Below are positions 3,294 through 24,726 of a stretch of 42,668 nt of DNA, one piece after another. Every line of letters starts with the position of its first letter. The stretch's first letter is position 1. The notes beneath the pieces were generated by a model. That model made no database searches and was not told the origin of the DNA. It saw only the letters and a program-made list of their open reading frames with translations. Position numbers and translations under genes: made by a program. The DNA is from a virus. The stretch is from IMG/VR virus record IMGVR_UViG_3300045988_131541, positions 1 through 42,668 of that record. One strand, 5' to 3'.

Positions 3294-6200
3294 CTAATAA
3301 AGTAACAGCATATTCTTTGAATTAATTTGTTGAGTTTTCAAAAAATAGTTTCCTACTTCTATACTCTCTGTTGCTTGTATTTTGTAGAAATATGCTAAGT
3401 CTTTATTAATTTGGAATATATTTATTCCTTTATATGTTGCTAGGATTTCGTCCTCATCTATAAACATAGTATTTTGATTTGCTTGAATCCAAAAGCCCTT
3501 TTCGTCCATTTTATAATTCTTGCCATAAACTTCCCCAGGAAATTGAGTCCACTGAGTACACATAGTGTTATATTCGAGCTTTAAATCAGCAATTTCAACG
3601 AATCCTTTAATCGGCACTATGTAATCAAATAGTTCAACACCTAAACTAGCGCCAGTTGGCAATAAACTACTTGGAATATCAAGTGTTTCCCACTCTACAA
3701 AAGTAGTATCATTATATTTTGCTCTCTTAACTAAATTTGTTGTTTTATTGTTCCAATATAACCCTTTGTAAGGTGTAGGCTCTACATTTCCTGTATAGAC
3801 TGCAAATGCAGGATAAAATGTTAATGCCACATAACAACTCTTGATTTCTGCTGTATCGTATATTATTGGTGTTTGATAATAGAATCCGTAGAAATATCTA
3901 TAAGTCCAAACTTCTCTTGAACTTTCGTTATATAATGACATTTTTGTATCTAATATTTCCCACTGTGATGTTTGCGAGTTATATTTTTTAGGTAAGTATA
4001 TCGTTGTATCTAACCAATTCTTGGTTGTATCTGTAGGTGCTGTGTTACTTACAACTACAGGAATAAAATCTGATTTCTTAGGTATTTCGATTATTTGCTC
4101 TATTTTAGTTAAATCTTTTAAATCATCTGGTGTCAGTATAATACCAGGCTCATACAACGAATACGGTTTTTCTACCTCTGTAAAATCTGCCTCATTAAGG
4201 AACATTAATCCTACGCAGACATTTCCTTGTACTATACTGTTTTTGATAAAGTATGATATTGCCATTTTGTTTTCATTTTGATTCAATGTAATAGGTTCTG
4301 TGATATTGAATATATGTGATACTGTATAGTCTTGTCTTCCATCAAGTTTAATAACTCGTCCACTCAGTGTATTTTCATTAGCATTTCTGCCATTTGCCCA
4401 ATATTCGTTAGAAGTTGTATAAGCGAAGTAGTTTTGAGCACTTAACAATGATTTTCTTGAGAGTTCTGATACTTGCCAACCACTACTGTTGTACACATAC
4501 ATTTGATTTTCTATGTAACTTCCACTATTGGCAGTACAATACCAGTATGCTCCTTCAGTAGGATTGTCAGGTGGTGTATCTGACTCTTGATATGGATATT
4601 TAGCGTGTGCTAGCCAGAAATTATTATCATTAATCATTGCACTATTTCTAATTAAATTGTTTCCACCGGTTCTTTTAGTTGCAAATTCTAAACTTTGATT
4701 GGCTAGCTCCAATGTTGCAAGCTTTTCTTGTGTTTGTTCGTTTATTGCTTTGACTGACTCTTTGATTGAGTCTGCTGTTTGACTTATTTGTGAGTCTGTT
4801 TCACTTTTTGTGTAGTGATTTTCTTTTACGTTTCGTTTGGTTTCGTATGTGTCGCTTAACCCATTATCTCTAACATATGTGATTTTCGCATTTGCTGTAC
4901 TTGTTATATTATTAATACCTCTAAATAATGTAAAATGCCTTAATTTCTCCCACGCTTCTTGCTGTGTTTCTGTGTAAGGTACTATTTCTTCTTCAGCTGG
5001 CTCGTATTCTACAATTACTGGTGTGCCATTTGCGTATTGAGTTGCTAACCAAGTTTTAAACTTAGTTATTCTCTGAGCTTTAGTATCACTCGAAATAATT
5101 CCTGTTACAGTCTTATTCATCGTTATACAAAAAACTGTTGTTGCCCAGAACCCTTGTCTACTTCGTGAACCTTTTTTTAAGTGACTACAAATTACACTGT
5201 TTATATTTTCTGTTGTTATACCTACTGTTCTCGTATAAAAATAATCTGTGCTAGTCTCTGATTGCGTGTCCATGTACCAAGCCCTATTATCACTTCCATC
5301 CAGCACAATTTGTTTTCTCTTATGATGTGTTCCGTCATCAGCTAGATAACTACCTTTATATAGCTTTTGCCCTTCTGATAGTGGGAAGTACTCTGCTTGT
5401 TCTTGATATGGAATGTATGGAGCTTGTGAACCTTTATTTAGCATTACATTAAATTCAAAATTATTAAAAGTACAACCAACATTATACTCAACAGATATTC
5501 TACAAATGCTTTCTTCTTCTAATGTAAATGTTTTACTTGTTTCATTTTTCAATTGTATCTTCGCTTTAGTCTTTTTAGGATTTGTATTTCCTGCAACTAA
5601 TGCTAGCGAACCTTCCGTACAACTTCCTTTTACGTTATGGATACTTAAAGTGTATGTTCTTGCTTTTAATTTTATATATTCGATACTAGTATCATATGCT
5701 GAATAATTTGCCGTCCAATTACCTATTATAGAAAACGCATTAGAACCTGCAGCCGCTTCCCCCATTGTTCCATTAAGTTTTACTAATCCATTTGTTATTG
5801 AACGTTCTACATTGTTAACTGTTGCCGAATATTCTCTGGCTTTAATTAAATTTTCTCCTATGTCTAAGAAACCTAAAGAATTATATGGCACATACGGTTT
5901 ATATTCTTCACCTTTTGTAATTTGTGGATATATTGTTACATTCTCTAATACCGCATCTTTATATACTCTAATATACATACCAGCTTTTGTTTCTTCTACT
6001 GTTTCTATCAAAGAAGAGGTATATGTCGTAGCATTATTTTTTAAATAAAATACCTGCGTTGTATATTTTCCGCTCTCATAACTTGATAACATTCTGTATT
6101 TTGAATTTGCTTTCAACAATACTGTCCTTGTATTCGTAGTAGTATTTACGTTAATTGGGTAATTTACTTCTGCTGTTGCAGTTCCATTCATTGTTATTGA

Positions 6201-23099: not shown

Positions 23100-23408
23100 T
23101 TATGTTCTCCGTACATATTCTTTTATTACTTCATTTATAAAATCATTACTACTTGCAACTACTTCGCATACATCTTCATAGCTGAATGTTTTATCGTCGT
23201 TTTGATTATGTCCGTATTCATATAGCCAAACATGTGTTAGTTCGTGTTTCAATGTCTTTATTATATTAGCTTGGTCTTTTAGTAGCATTATTGTTTGAGT
23301 TCTATATATTGTTACTCCTAATGTTCCATCACTTTTCATTTCGTTATTAATTGTGGCTTCATCTACTTCTTCTATTAACCATTCCGTATTATTTATTTTA
23401 AATTTCAT
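23100..23408 (-). CDS. Small HExxH metallopeptidase-like protein
   Basis: HELTHVWLYEYGH motif. ATG at 23408 with SD GAGGA. Confidence 0.6.
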   Translation of the reverse strand: MKFKINNTEWLIEEVDEATINNEMKSDGTLGVTIYRTQTIMLLKDQANIIKTLKHELTHVWLYEYGHNQNDDKTFSYEDVCEVVASSNDFINEVIKEYVRRT

Positions 23409-23553
23409 CTTTATCCTCACATATATTAAAATATTTGCATTTATCGCATTGTCTTTTCTCGTCTACAATACACTTTTGTCTTTTCTTATTCTCATAAAAT
23501 TTTCTTCTTCTATATTCATTGTCTATGTAGTTTGCTATTATACTACCTCTCAT
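23398..23553 (-). CDS. Small Cys-rich basic protein (51 aa)
   Basis: ATG at 23553 with SD AAGGAAG. Contains C..CDKCKYFNIC. Confidence 0.5.
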   Translation of the reverse strand: MRGSIIANYIDNEYRRRKFYENKKRQKCIVDEKRQCDKCKYFNICEDKDEI

Positions 23554-23584
23554 ATACAACACTTCCTTTGTATAAAACACTATG

Positions 23585-24100
23585 TAATGATACCGGATTA
23601 TACAAGGCGCTACCTCGTATCGTTTGGATTTCTGGTATCAACACAGCCTATAACCTTTAGCTTACGGGCCGAATCTCTTGGAAGTTCTGATATTCCTCTT
23701 CCCTGTGTCGGAATTAATATCTCAACCTTTTGCTCCCATTGCTTTTTTATATCATTACATACTATTTTACTTGGCGACAGAGTGAAGTGTCGAGCCCCAA
23801 GCATTTTACTGCTCCAACTGTTTTCAAGACAGTGTTCAAAGCCGTTTGAATTACTCTGCCATGTAGGGGATTTTAATTTTATTTTCAACGAAGGTTTCCC
23901 CACTTTTTACTCCGCATATCTAGGGGCTACCTAGAACCTGGCGACAACCTATGGACTTGCACCATATACCTTATTAGGTACGCATTTCTTAGCAGGAAAG
24001 CTCCAAACTTTTTGAATTAAGTTGTCATTTTACTAGGTATCGTTAATAGAAAAATAGAGCCAAACATTAAATGTTCAGCCCTGCAAAAGTTTATATCTTT
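23585..24100 (-). ncRNA. Candidate large structured non-coding RNA (about 0.5 kb; class unknown, ROOL/GOLLD-like or a late-operon leader)
   Basis: A 597-bp gap between convincing genes. GC is roughly 40-45% by hand count, against an estimated 30% or less for the genome. Stop-poor ORFs occur on both strands with atypical codons. At least 9 helices were found by eye, and 4 of them contain G-U pairs only if read on the minus strand. Confidence 0.6.
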
Positions 24101-24108
24101 TTTTCTCT

Positions 24109-24172
24109 ATTATAATTATAACTCTTTCAAAACTAAATTTCATCCAAATTTTATCACAATTTTATCACAATT
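24109..24172 (-). promoter_or_regulatory. Putative late promoter: tandem 11-bp repeats plus a perfect -10
   Basis: ttatcacaatt appears twice in tandem (24151-61 and 24162-72). Minus-strand TATAAT at 24109-14 (a second one at 24115-20), with only a weak -35 (TTTAGT at a 17-bp spacing). Confidence 0.5.
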
Positions 24173-24177
24173 TTTCA

Positions 24178-24726
24178 TTATTCACCTATATTTAGTACAT
24201 CAAGCATACTTTTTATTGCTGTGTCTCTTATATTTAATAATTGGTTTATAGATTTTGGTTTTTGGAACTCCATGCAGTATTGTTGTGATACATAATCCCA
24301 TTTAGATTTTTCCATATAATATATCTTTATAACAAACTTTTCTTCTGCTGATAGTTGATTAATCATATTTTCAACTCTTACTATTTTTTTGTCTAACTCG
24401 TCTTTCAATTTGTTTAGTTCTTCTAATTTGGTTTGTAAAAATTGCCTATCTTCTTTGTTTATGTGTCTTTCTTCTCTATGGTAATTCATTACCGTATTTA
24501 GCACTTTATCTGATACTTTGTTTGTATTACTATGTATGCTATCATAAGCTTGTCCAGCTAACTGCATATTTTCTATAATTTCGTTTTCTGTTTCCTCATA
24601 TACCGTTCCAGCATATTCCAATCTTTCTTCGTATTCTTCTTTTTTTAATTGTATTTCCGTCAGCTTTGCTTGATTTTTTAAGTGATCCTTTAACATGGTT
24701 TCAACGTCTTCTTTTATGTATTGCAT
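24178..24726 (-). CDS. Late-gene transcriptional regulator (sigma region 4 / ArpU-RinA-like)
   Basis: 182 aa. Long coiled coil, then an HTH-like C-terminus (KWDYVSQQYCMEFQKPKSINQLLNIRDTAIKSM). Last gene before the packaging module. Confidence 0.55.
   Translation of the reverse strand: MQYIKEDVETMLKDHLKNQAKLTEIQLKKEEYEERLEYAGTVYEETENEIIENMQLAGQAYDSIHSNTNKVSDKVLNTVMNYHREERHINKEDRQFLQTKLEELNKLKDELDKKIVRVENMINQLSAEEKFVIKIYYMEKSKWDYVSQQYCMEFQKPKSINQLLNIRDTAIKSMLDVLNIGE

What the first reader, a model, noticed from the sequence alone, without database searches (positions are those of the whole stretch)
23585..24100. Roughly 0.5-kb GC-enriched, helix-rich, non-coding block at the head of the packaging operon: candidate large structured RNA
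A 597-bp stretch between the late regulator (stop at 24178) and the first small gene of the packaging module (ATG at 23553) has no convincing gene. By rough hand count its GC content is about 40-45%, against an estimated 30% or less for the rest of the window. Because stop codons are depleted, long ORFs appear on both strands (193 aa on plus, 97 aa on minus), but their composition and GC-rich codons do not match the rest of the phage. Reading the minus strand, I can pair at least nine helices. Coordinates below use plus-strand numbering.
- 23588-94 / 23634-40.
- 23602-07 / 23613-18.
- 23639-46 / 23703-10.
- An 8-bp closing helix, 23776-83 / 23853-60, that encloses three hairpins: 23800-03/23810-13, 23817-21/23829-33 and 23835-40/23845-50.
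- 23920-24 / 23930-34.
- 23950-54 / 23962-66.
- 23966-71 / 23976-81.
Four of these helices contain a G-U pair on the minus-strand reading that would be an A-C mismatch on the plus strand; only one shows the opposite. This argues for a minus-strand transcript, co-directional with the late genes and starting near the TATAAT at 24109-14. Large ornate RNAs of unknown function (ROOL, GOLLD) are established to be enriched in prophages of Firmicutes, and ROOL is about this size. I cannot match a consensus from memory. The element could belong to one of those classes, be a new class, or be a long cis-acting leader of the late operon.
Basis: partly seen in the sequence, partly recalled or inferred. Interest (0 to 1): 0.85.

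Follow-up and report, generated by a model that had tools for sequence, protein, structure and literature searches.

The report
Odd serine tRNAs plus leader RNA
The GC-rich non-coding block is not one giant RNA: it is a swappable cassette at the head of a gut phage's late operon, holding two unusually shaped serine tRNA genes that standard tRNA finders miss and a conserved long RNA hairpin that encloses a small structured RNA of unknown role.

Summary
The block has 39% GC against 29% elsewhere, all ten listed helices pair, and it is non-coding and read on the minus strand. The ROOL/GOLLD-like interpretation does not hold: no Rfam family matches, and relatives gain and lose the parts independently.

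The block is a composite, 5' to 3' on the minus strand:
- A promoter-like site and an intrinsic terminator (24082-24046).
- tRNA-Ser(GCU), 24026-23939.
- A 78-nt spacer.
- tRNA-Ser(UGA), 23860-23772.
- A roughly 22-bp "stalk" helix (23770-23749 with 23593-23572) enclosing a 155-nt structured RNA, ending 19 nt before the first late gene's ATG.

Both tRNAs have the rare 8/4 cloverleaf reported for phage tRNA-Ser by Mukai et al. 2017. On 21 distinct homologues, 99.8% of cells pair and 24 of 29 pairs change on both sides. ARAGORN and Rfam miss both window copies.

The stalk occurs in 83 non-redundant gut-phage loci with about 31 unrelated interiors. It has compensatory changes and sense-strand wobble pairs, and I found no description of it.

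The same slot in related phages holds ROOL plus tRNAs, skipping-rope RNA, or HicAB-like ORFs. The tRNAs are a new member of a known kind; the stalk is a candidate new motif.

The parts
24150..24171 (-). Tandem direct repeat ATTGTGATAAA x2 just upstream of the promoter-like site. Candidate regulator binding site (inferred).
   Evidence: Read directly from the sequence. Lies in the stretch conserved in relatives, window 24200-24102.
24109..24143 (-). Promoter-like site: ATGAAA, 17 nt, TATAAT (24120-24115), with a second overlapping TATAAT at 24114-24109.
   Evidence: Consensus scan, 10 of 12 matches. Conserved in all cassette types that keep the regulator gene. Not shown to be active.
24046..24082 (-). 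Intrinsic terminator: 12-bp stem at 24082-24056 followed by AUUUUUCUAU.
   Evidence: Terminator scan. Hairpin z-score -4.6. Substitutions in L002 and L004 keep the pairs. Only about 20 nt separate it from the first tRNA, so there is no room for another promoter.
23939..24026 (-). tRNA-Ser(GCU) gene with an 8/4 cloverleaf and encoded CCA. Acceptor GACAACUU/AGGUUGUC, D stem UUCAAA/UUUGGA, anticodon loop CUGCUAA, long variable arm, T arm AUGG-UGCAAGU-CCAU, G73.
   Evidence: Covariance model R1 scores 55.8 bits, E 2e-13. Parse; covariation. No variable site among nine close variants. Missed by ARAGORN and Rfam.
23861..23938 (-). 78-nt spacer ('module X'): hairpin CUAGG/CCUAG plus a possible small pseudoknot (GCGGAG/CUUCGU crossing GUGGGG/CCCCUAC). 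Function unknown.
   Evidence: Absent from L039, L004 and L009, where the two tRNAs are 2 nt apart. Present in L111 in another cassette. Variants keep the pairs through one-sided changes. Folding energy is not better than shuffles. Most variable part of the block, 9 of 78 sites.
23772..23860 (-). tRNA-Ser(UGA) gene with an 8/4 cloverleaf and encoded CCA. Acceptor GGCAGAGU/ACUCUGUC, D stem UUCAAA-CGGC-UUUGAA, anticodon loop CUUGAAA, long variable arm, T arm GGGG-CUCGACA-CUUC, G73.
   Evidence: R1 scores 96.4 bits. The minimum-free-energy fold is exactly the 8/4 cloverleaf. Homologues in L039, L017 and L024 are called tRNA-Ser(tga) by ARAGORN. Covariation.
23749..23770 (-). 5' strand of the 'stalk': outer helix GUAAAAUA, a G that faces a G, then inner helix UAUGUAAUGAUAU.
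   Evidence: RNAfold of nine cassette types gives the same closing helix. Pair counts.
23594..23748 (-). 155-nt structured RNA enclosed by the stalk ('cargo', window type). Helices: Pb 23721-16/23694-89; P3 23709-03/23646-40, which crosses Pb (pseudoknot or alternative fold); P4 23670-67/23662-59; P5 23620-13/23607-00. Function unknown.
   Evidence: 26 distinct homologues, always inside a stalk. Changes on both sides in Pb (2 pairs), P3 (1) and P5 (2). z-score -4.0 with the stalk included. No Rfam match.
23572..23593 (-). 3' strand of the stalk: GUAUCAUUACAUA, G, UGUUUUAU.
   Evidence: Exact-pattern scan finds it in 90 viral contigs.
23551..23568 (-). Shine-Dalgarno AAGGAAG (23568-23562) and ATG (23553-23551) of the first late gene (51 aa).
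   Evidence: Sequence. In nearly all of 83 non-redundant stalk loci a start codon with a ribosome-binding site follows 18-36 nt after the stalk.

Best explanation
The block is a non-coding cargo cassette in the leader of the late (packaging) operon of a temperate phage of uncultured gut Firmicutes. It is not a single RNA. Shown: it holds two serine tRNA genes, with anticodons GCU and UGA, that fold into the rare 8/4 cloverleaf. That shape has an 8-bp acceptor stem, a 4-bp T stem, a 6-bp D stem with a 3-4-nt loop, a 6-bp anticodon stem with one bulge, a long variable arm and G73. Also shown: it holds a conserved stalk helix of about 22 bp whose tip carries a 155-nt structured RNA. Inferred: transcription starts at the promoter-like site after the regulator gene and must read through the terminator at 24082-24046, as in lambda-type late control. 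The tRNAs would then be cut out by the host's tRNA-processing enzymes and charged by host seryl-tRNA synthetase, which recognises the long arm and G73 rather than the anticodon. Together they can read AGU, AGC, UCA and UCG, at least 83% of the serine codons of the late genes, and possibly UCU and UCC as well. They would therefore supply serine decoding during virion production. They might also stand in for host serine tRNAs if a defence system attacks those. Inferred more weakly: the stalk is a double-strand-specific processing site, of the RNase III type. Cleavage there would separate the upstream non-coding RNAs from the late mRNA, release the enclosed small RNA, and leave a defined mRNA 5' end just before the ribosome-binding site.
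For: tRNA identity:
- Model R1 hits only these two places in the window, at 96.4 and 55.8 bits.
- On 21 distinct homologues from four subfamilies the refined cloverleaf pairs in 99.8% of cells, and 24 of 29 pairs change on both sides. Slid controls give 34-46%.
- The eighth acceptor pair is U-A in 15 sequences and A-U in 6. The rival fifth T-stem pair fails in those 6.
- U33, a purine at 37, C56 and a D-loop G are present.
- ARAGORN calls the L039, L017 and L024 copies tRNA-Ser(tga).
- In phages of about 95 kb the same two genes sit inside tRNA arrays. In L003, ARAGORN tRNAs there and none for serine.
- The class was reported in phages and rumen Clostridia (PMC5389517).
- The tRNA genes are the most conserved parts of the block, with 0 and 2 variable sites.

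Codon fit: AGT 37%, TCA 31%, TCT 15%, AGC 11%, TCG 4%, TCC 2% of late-gene serine codons.

Modularity: relatives lack the spacer, add a 98-nt piece, or carry HicA/HicB-like ORFs, ROOL plus tRNAs, or skipping-rope RNA in the same slot.

Stalk:
- The same closing helix forms in nine cassette types.
- 90.7% of cells pair and 14 pairs change on both sides.
- A U-G pair is invariant and a G-U pair is present in 30 of 34 sequences. Both would be mismatches on the other strand.
- There are 83 non-redundant loci with about 31 unrelated interiors, from a plain 10-nt loop to about 190 nt.
- A start codon follows 18-36 nt later.

Not coding.
Against: - No expression, processing or charging data exist. 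All function is inferred.
- ARAGORN and the Rfam tRNA model both fail on the two window copies.
- The window's tRNA-Ser(UGA) has a private T-stem change (CUUC for CCUC) and C54. The tRNA-Ser(GCU) has G55 in the T loop. One or both could be impaired.
- For the two window sequences alone, a 7/5 reading is also possible. The 8/4 call rests on the family.
- The covariation alignment was fitted to the model, and its four subfamilies give few independent events.
- A terminator lies between the promoter-like site and the tRNAs, and no antiterminator was identified. The regulator matches only PHROG 36, 'transcriptional regulator'.
- RNase III cleavage of the stalk is untested. The stalk's conserved sequence could equally mean binding by some other protein.
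Confidence: 0.8

Rival explanations
1. The whole block of about 0.5 kb is one large ornate RNA of the ROOL/GOLLD kind, or a new class of that size, that folds and acts as a unit.
For: The block is GC-enriched, helix-rich and non-coding. ROOL RNAs occur in the same slot of related phages L009 and L138. ROOL and GOLLD are known to lie near phage tRNA islands (PMC12286853).
Against: No Rfam family reaches gathering score in the window, and ROOL and GOLLD do not appear even at E up to 10. The same ROOL model scores 322-330 bits on L009 and L138. The parts occur independently. The two tRNAs occur next to other stalk cargos (L004, L009). The window-type cargo occurs without these tRNAs in L110, L115, L160 and L162-L164. 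The spacer is missing in L039. 177 of the block's nucleotides are two tRNA cloverleaves.
Confidence: 0.03
2. The two tRNA-shaped RNAs are not used in translation. They would act as decoys or regulators, for example by soaking up a host nuclease or toxin that attacks serine tRNAs, or they are decaying pseudogenes carried along with the cassette.
For: Mukai et al. found allo-tRNAs that are inactive in translation and lie near toxin-antitoxin systems (PMC5389517). The alternative cargo in the same slot encodes HicA/HicB-like ORFs (my reading of the ORF sequences, no domain search run). The T loops deviate from the norm (C54, G55), and standard tRNA finders miss both window copies.
Against: The anticodons are true serine anticodons with U33 and A37. 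CCA is encoded and G73 and the long arm are kept. All stems are kept through compensatory changes. Both genes are nearly invariant among close variants. In the large phages they fill the serine gap in an otherwise broad tRNA set. 8/4 allo-tRNAs inserted serine efficiently in E. coli (PMC5389517 abstract; PMC7609411).
Confidence: 0.14
3. The stalk region acts at the DNA level, as an invertible switch, a recombination site for swapping cassettes, or a packaging site, rather than as an RNA helix.
For: It is a long inverted repeat with a hypervariable centre, placed just upstream of the packaging genes. The sequence of the arms is conserved, not only their pairing. Several contigs end inside it.
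Against: No interior type matches another in either orientation, so there is no sign of inversion. An invariant U-G pair and a G-U pair present in 30 of 34 sequences would be A-C mismatches on the other strand, which points to selection on the transcript. The stalk keeps a fixed distance to the ribosome-binding site whatever gene follows. Contig breaks at a conserved repeat with a variable centre are expected from metagenome assembly.
Confidence: 0.1
4. One of the long ORFs (193 aa on plus, 97 aa on minus) is a real gene.
For: The ORFs exist.
Against: Neither has a Pfam hit. Variable sites show no third-position excess. L039 replaces the 78-nt spacer by 2 nt; this net 76-nt loss would shift both frames (my arithmetic). 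Both ORFs run through two tRNA genes.
Confidence: 0.01

Closest known systems
(8/4) tRNA-Ser, part of the allo-tRNA group (Mukai et al. 2017, Nucleic Acids Res 45:2776; PMC5389517)
   Same: 12-bp acceptor branch split 8/4, long D stem with a short loop, 6-bp anticodon stem, long variable arm, G73, serine anticodons, and occurrence in phage tRNA clusters and in Clostridia. All sequence-level features were tested here and met.
   Different: Here the genes sit as a pair in the leader of a temperate phage's late operon in human-gut samples, with encoded CCA. I could not compare them with the published sequences because the supplement is not held. The anticodon stem has a bulged nucleotide on its 3' side. 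Charging was not tested.
tRNA genes placed directly after the late promoter and terminator in Shiga-toxin phages (ileZ-argN-argO between pR'/tR' and stx in 933W; recalled from memory, not checked here)
   Same: Non-coding cargo genes sit between a late promoter with an early terminator and the late genes, so they would be expressed only with late transcription.
   Different: Different phages and hosts, canonical tRNAs there, no stalk element. The antitermination step is only inferred here.
ROOL and GOLLD RNAs (Rfam RF03087; Weinberg et al. 2017, PMC5737381; Kretsch et al. 2025, PMC12286853)
   Same: Phage-borne non-coding RNA next to tRNA genes. A true ROOL occupies the same slot in related phages L009 and L138.
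   Different: The window has no ROOL or GOLLD. Its structured parts are much smaller and modular.
RNase III processing stalks: helices flanking 16S and 23S rRNA, and RNase III sites in T7, lambda and SP82 phage transcripts (from general knowledge, not checked here)
   Same: A long helix of 20 bp or more, formed by sequences on both sides of a structured RNA, or placed in a phage mRNA leader. It has a small internal mismatch, and in phage sites the sequence is conserved.
   Different: No cleavage data. No other case is known to me of one conserved stalk carrying about 30 unrelated small RNAs at the head of late operons.
tRNA-Sec
   Same: 8-bp acceptor stem, 6-bp D stem with a tetraloop, 6-bp anticodon stem, long variable arm.
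   Different: The acceptor branch is 12 bp (8/4), not 13 bp (8/5). The anticodons are UGA and GCU, not UCA. No match to the Rfam tRNA-Sec model.

Membership tests
(8/4) tRNA-Ser / allo-tRNA | 8-bp acceptor stem | tested here: met
   Columns 1-8 with 79-86 pair in 100% of cells, and 7 of 8 pairs change on both sides. The eighth pair is U-A in 15 and A-U in 6.
(8/4) tRNA-Ser / allo-tRNA | 4-bp T stem, giving a 12-bp acceptor branch (not 7/5) | tested here: met
   The four T-stem pairs are 100% paired. The extra pair needed for a 7/5 reading is unpaired in 6 of 21 sequences. For the two window sequences alone both readings are possible.
(8/4) tRNA-Ser / allo-tRNA | Long D stem with a tetraloop, as in tRNA-Sec | tested here: met
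   6-bp D stem, all 6 pairs changing on both sides. The loop is CGGC in the UGA tRNA and 3 nt (AAG) in the GCU tRNA.
(8/4) tRNA-Ser / allo-tRNA | Anticodon stem longer than the canonical 5 bp | tested here: met
   6 bp with one bulged nucleotide on the 3' side, 100% paired, 5 of 6 pairs changing on both sides. The plain 5-bp reading leaves the top pair unpaired in 17 of 21 sequences.
(8/4) tRNA-Ser / allo-tRNA | Long variable arm and G73 or U73, the elements seryl-tRNA synthetase recognises | tested here: met
   5-bp variable stem with a 6-nt loop in the parsed sequences, 99% of cells paired. The discriminator is G in 18 of the 19 parsed sequences, including both window genes.
(8/4) tRNA-Ser / allo-tRNA | Serine anticodon, which separates tRNA-Ser from other allo-tRNAs | tested here: met
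   Anticodon loops CUUGAAA (UGA) and CUGCUAA (GCU), with U33 and A37.
(8/4) tRNA-Ser / allo-tRNA | Charged with serine and active in translation | not testable with these tools
   Needs an aminoacylation assay or a reporter assay.
Canonical tRNA (Rfam RF00005, ARAGORN) | Detected by the standard models | tested here: not met
   ARAGORN finds no tRNA in the window. Rfam gives no tRNA hit even at E up to 10. Close homologues in L039, L017 and L024 are called tRNA-Ser(tga) by ARAGORN.
ROOL RNA (RF03087) | Match to the covariance model at or above its gathering score of 99.1 bits | tested here: not met
   No hit in the window. The same model gives 322 bits on L009 and 330 bits on L138.
GOLLD, HEARO, group I and II introns, RNase P RNA, tmRNA | Match to the Rfam models | tested here: not met
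   No hit at gathering score in the window. None of these appears among the matches with E up to 10 over 23300-24400. ARAGORN finds no tmRNA.
tRNA-Sec | UCA anticodon and a 13-bp acceptor branch | tested here: not met
   Anticodons are UGA and GCU. The branch is 8/4, or 12 bp.
Intrinsic terminator (24082-24046) | Stable stem followed directly by a U run | tested here: met
   12-bp stem followed by AUUUUUCUAU; z-score -4.6. Termination itself was not tested.
RNase III-type processing stalk | Continuous double-stranded helix of about 20 bp or more in the transcript | tested here: met
   8 bp, a G/G mismatch, then 13 bp in the window. The helix is kept with compensatory changes.
RNase III-type processing stalk | Cleavage by RNase III | not testable with these tools
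   Needs an in vitro cleavage assay or end mapping in an RNase III mutant.

The most novel reading that the evidence does not exclude
The stalk would be a general docking helix for RNA cargo. One conserved helix of about 22-27 bp sits at the head of the late operon in many gut Firmicutes phages. At least 30 unrelated structured small RNAs have been inserted into its tip, and tRNAs, ROOL or skipping-rope RNAs are placed just in front of it. Cleavage of the stalk would release a phage-specific small RNA at the time of late gene expression. Such RNAs could act as counter-defence or host-takeover factors. The window's 155-nt cargo, which appears to contain a pseudoknot, would be one new RNA class among many.
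Probability: 0.3. Interest if true: 0.75.

Novelty: new member of a known kind. Interest (0 to 1): 0.55.

Why it matters
- Standard annotation misses both serine tRNAs, so gut phage genomes probably carry more tRNA genes than reported. A GC-rich 'orphan' leader like this one is easily taken for a giant RNA or a gene.
- The 8/4 serine tRNAs are here tied to a defined place: the leader of the late operon of temperate phages from the human gut. They are also tied to the same cassette that carries ROOL in relatives. That gives a tractable setting to ask why ROOL and tRNAs travel together.
- The stalk with its many unrelated cargos is, as far as I could find, undescribed. If it is a processing site, it points to a large and unexplored set of phage small RNAs.

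Tried and rejected
- Rfam 15 on the whole window at gathering score, and on 23300-24400 at E up to 10: nothing real (RAGATH-19, SNORD20, mir-7371 and HrrF at chance level).
- ARAGORN on the window: nothing.
- blastn against isolated phages: one 85-nt hit, which led to the tRNA array of bajarodcaudo virus 1. The stalk has no credible match in isolated phages.
- Exact tRNA pattern in species-representative genomes: no hit. The regulator protein finds only four metagenome-assembled genomes of uncultured Clostridia, Bacilli and Firmicutes, so the host stays imprecise.
- MAFFT of the four tRNA subfamilies put the length difference at the 5' end instead of the D loop. I replaced it with a model-based alignment.
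- Inverton idea for the stalk: rejected, because no interior matches another in either orientation.
- Stalk cargos as tRNA-Ser relatives: rejected. R1 finds nothing inside stalks in 54 loci, although two cargo types end in a T-arm-like hairpin.
- Stalk cargos as known families: none in Rfam.
- Integron attC-like site and Y RNA/YrlA-like RNA were considered for the stalk by eye only. No consensus boxes or Rfam hits support either.
- Literature search for the stalk sequence: no paper. The supplement of Mukai et al. is not held, so no direct sequence comparison was possible.
- Pfam and PHROGs on the two long ORFs and the neighbouring genes.
- I ran no further search on the two spurious ORFs.
Full report
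**1. Checking the observation**

- GC of 23585-24100 is 0.39 against 0.29 for the rest of the window. Only 2 of 844 windows of the same size reach that value.
- The 193-aa and 97-aa ORFs exist.
Four contain a G-U pair that is a mismatch on the plus strand.
- The minus strand folds better than shuffled sequence (z = -3.3). The plus strand does not (z = -1.4).

**2. The ROOL/GOLLD proposal**

Rfam 15 gives no match at gathering score anywhere in the window. Over 23300-24400 it gives only chance-level hits at E up to 10. ARAGORN finds no tRNA or tmRNA. The block is therefore not ROOL, GOLLD, HEARO, an intron, RNase P RNA or tmRNA.

**3. The lead to tRNAs**

A sensitive blastn search against isolated phages gave one 85-nt hit, in bajarodcaudo virus 1. 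The hit lies inside a tRNA array, between tRNA-Arg and tRNA-Pro, in a piece that neither ARAGORN nor Rfam calls.

Read as a cloverleaf, the matching window segment 23860-23772 has:
- an 8-bp acceptor stem, GGCAGAGU/ACUCUGUC;
- a 6-bp D stem with loop CGGC;
- the anticodon loop CUUGAAA (anticodon UGA, serine);
- a long variable arm and a 4-bp T stem;
- G73 and an encoded CCA.

Segment 24026-23939 has the same plan with the anticodon loop CUGCUAA (GCU, serine).

Two further listed helices are the T arm and variable arm of the second tRNA.

**4. Testing the cloverleaf**

- An exact-pattern scan of viral contigs found 32 contigs with the UGA gene.
- I built a covariance model with the 8/4 structure (R1). 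In the window it hits only these two places, at 96.4 and 55.8 bits. Canonical tRNAs of the same arrays score below 40 bits.
- The alignment holds 21 distinct sequences in four subfamilies: the window family and the roughly 95-kb phages, each with a UGA and a GCU gene.
- On it, 96.9% of cells pair and 22 of 28 pairs change on both sides. Slid controls give 35-47%.
- The eighth acceptor pair is U-A in 15 sequences and A-U in 6. The fifth T-stem pair that a normal 7/5 tRNA would need fails in those 6.
- Redrawing the anticodon stem as 6 bp with one bulged nucleotide raises pairing to 99.8%, with 24 of 29 pairs changing on both sides.
- The minimum-free-energy fold of the window's UGA tRNA is exactly this cloverleaf.

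Caveats: the alignment was fitted to the model. Four subfamilies give few independent events. For the two window sequences alone, a 7/5 reading cannot be excluded.

**5. What these tRNAs are**

Mukai et al. 2017 defined allo-tRNAs and (8/4) tRNA-Ser by these features: a 12-bp acceptor branch split 8/4, a long D stem with a tetraloop, a longer anticodon stem, a long variable arm, and G73 or U73. They reported (8/4) tRNA-Ser in phages, proteobacteria and rumen Clostridia (PMC5389517; review PMC7609411). Every sequence-level feature is met here.

Further support that they are working serine tRNAs:
- ARAGORN calls the L039, L017 and L024 homologues tRNA-Ser(tga).
- In the large phage L003, ARAGORN tRNAs and none for serine. 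The two 8/4 genes sit between tRNA-Asp and tRNA-Pro.
- Among nine close cassette variants, the two tRNA genes have 0 and 2 variable sites, the fewest of any part.
- The late genes' serine codons are AGT 37%, TCA 31%, TCT 15%, AGC 11%, TCG 4% and TCC 2%. The pair can therefore read at least 83% of them.

Points against: the window's UGA copy has a private T-stem change and C54, and the GCU copy has G55. Charging and use in translation are inferred, not shown.

**6. The block is a swappable cassette**

Relatives found through the regulator protein are nearly identical on both sides but differ between window 24102 and 23597.
- Some carry 1135 bp with HicA/HicB-like ORFs instead. I identified these from their sequences and ran no domain search on them.
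- Some have an extra 98 nt before the first tRNA.
- L039, L004 and L009 lack the 78-nt spacer, so their two tRNAs are 2 nt apart.
- L061 carries a skipping-rope RNA.
- L009 (as also L014, L023 and L028) is a phage with a different backbone. Its cassette runs: a tRNA, a ROOL RNA of 322 bits, tRNA-Arg, irregular tRNA-like pieces, then the same two serine tRNAs.
- L138 also carries ROOL (330 bits) and tRNAs in front of its stalk, but R1 finds no 8/4 serine tRNA there.

ROOL and GOLLD are known to lie near phage tRNA islands. The window holds the ROOL-less form of a cassette that carries ROOL elsewhere.

**7. Not coding**

Neither long ORF has a Pfam hit. Variable sites show no third-position excess: 6/7/4 and 9/7/5 by codon position. 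L039 replaces the 78-nt spacer by 2 nt, a net loss of 76 nt that would shift both frames.

**8. The last third of the block: the stalk**

Window 23770-23749 pairs with 23593-23572. The helix is 8 bp, then a G facing a G, then 13 bp. It encloses 155 nt.
- The same closing helix forms in every cassette type, with or without tRNAs.
- A scan with its 3' strand found 90 viral contigs.
- They yield 83 non-redundant loci and about 31 interior types, from a plain 10-nt loop (L143) to about 190 nt.
- The interiors are unrelated to one another in either orientation, so this is not an invertible switch.
- On 34 stalks, 90.7% of cells pair and 14 pairs change on both sides.
- A U-G pair is invariant and a G-U pair is present in 30 of 34. 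Both would be A-C mismatches on the other strand, which argues for selection on the sense transcript.
- A start codon with a ribosome-binding site follows 18-36 nt later, whatever the gene.
- Homologues of the window's small terminase lie downstream in 33 of 95 loci. Homologues of its regulator lie upstream in 34 of 89.
- No Rfam family, paper or isolated phage matches the stalk.

**9. The window-type cargo**

It has 26 distinct homologues, including human-gut metagenome contigs. All sit inside a stalk, and several lack the serine tRNAs. Helices Pb, P3 and P5 have changes on both sides. Pb and P3 cross, so the RNA has a pseudoknot or alternative folds. With the stalk included, the fold has z = -4.0. 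Sequence diversity is limited to two or three clades, so this support is modest.

**10. The upstream end**

After the regulator's stop codon come, in order:
- a tandem repeat, ATTGTGATAAA twice;
- a promoter-like site;
- a clean intrinsic terminator at 24082-24046.

Only about 20 nt separate the terminator from the first tRNA. The tRNAs and late genes therefore need read-through of this terminator. That resembles lambda-type late control, but it is an inference. The regulator matches only PHROG 36, 'transcriptional regulator'.

**11. Proposed mechanism**

Shown: two 8/4 tRNA-Ser genes, a conserved stalk with a structured cargo, the modular nature of the cassette, and the absence of coding.

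Inferred:
- late transcription reads through the terminator;
- host enzymes release the tRNAs;
- host seryl-tRNA synthetase charges them;
- they support serine decoding during virion production, or replace host serine tRNAs under attack.

Inferred more weakly: the stalk is cut by a double-strand-specific nuclease such as RNase III. Cleavage would free the cargo RNA and set the 5' end of the late mRNA.

Rivals considered:
- one large RNA (contradicted);
- non-translating tRNA mimics (possible);
- a DNA-level role for the stalk (less likely because of the wobble pairs);
- coding (contradicted).

**12. Verdict**

The finding is real but was misread. The tRNAs are new members of a known, rare class. 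The stalk with its many cargos is the part that may be new.

Noticed in passing
L009 5055-5619 (minus strand); L138 1812-2376 (minus strand): True ROOL RNAs (322 and 330 bits) with flanking tRNAs lie in the same cassette slot, upstream of the stalk. In L009 (as also L014, L023 and L028) the same two 8/4 serine tRNAs lie between ROOL and the stalk, in a phage with a different backbone.
   Followed up: partly
L061 2722-2838: A skipping-rope RNA (55 bits, gathering score 36.7) sits directly after the regulator gene's terminator, in place of the tRNA cassette.
   Followed up: no
L036 3625-4750 (also L037, L038, L077 and others): Phages whose regulator is 99% identical carry 1135 bp with ORFs of 56 and 115 aa that look like HicA/HicB (my reading of the sequences, no domain search), instead of the tRNAs. 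They still have a stalk, with a different interior.
   Followed up: partly
L002 5731-5830; L009 about 4710-4985 (minus strand): Extra non-coding modules lie in front of tRNA-Ser(GCU). One is a 98-nt piece. In L009 there is also a piece of about 110 nt that ends in a T-arm-like GGGUGCAAAUCCC and GCCA. It looks like another irregular tRNA that no tool calls.
   Followed up: no
L099 about 1944-2087; L107 about 1804-1928: Two stalk cargo types end in a T-arm-like hairpin right next to the 3' strand of the stalk (GUUGG-UUCGAGU-CCAAC and GUAGG-UGCAAGU-CCUAC). They may be tRNA-like RNAs that use the stalk as an extended acceptor stem. The R1 model does not hit them.
   Followed up: partly
L137, minus strand, elements starting at 4117 and 4335: One contig carries two stalk elements in tandem, about 220 nt apart, with different interiors.
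   Followed up: no
L145 and L154, 17 nt and 171 nt upstream of their stalks: ARAGORN calls a tRNA-Ser with the unusual anticodon ACT. The R1 model gives weak hits (26-28 bits) on the same two contigs, but I did not check that they are the same places.
   Followed up: no
window 24150-24171: Tandem repeat ATTGTGATAAA x2 between the regulator's stop codon and the promoter-like site. Possibly the regulator's binding site.
   Followed up: no
window 23786 and 23795 (within 23772-23860): The window's tRNA-Ser(UGA) has a private C-to-T change that turns a G-C pair of the T stem into G-U (23786). Like most relatives it has C54 (23795). Only L039 has the canonical TTCGA.
   Followed up: partly
L005 8878-9263 (minus strand): One of the viral contigs of 70-100 kb that carry tRNA arrays (L005, a 70,914-bp contig) also encodes a tmRNA, with tag peptide GNTSYRVAA.
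   Followed up: no
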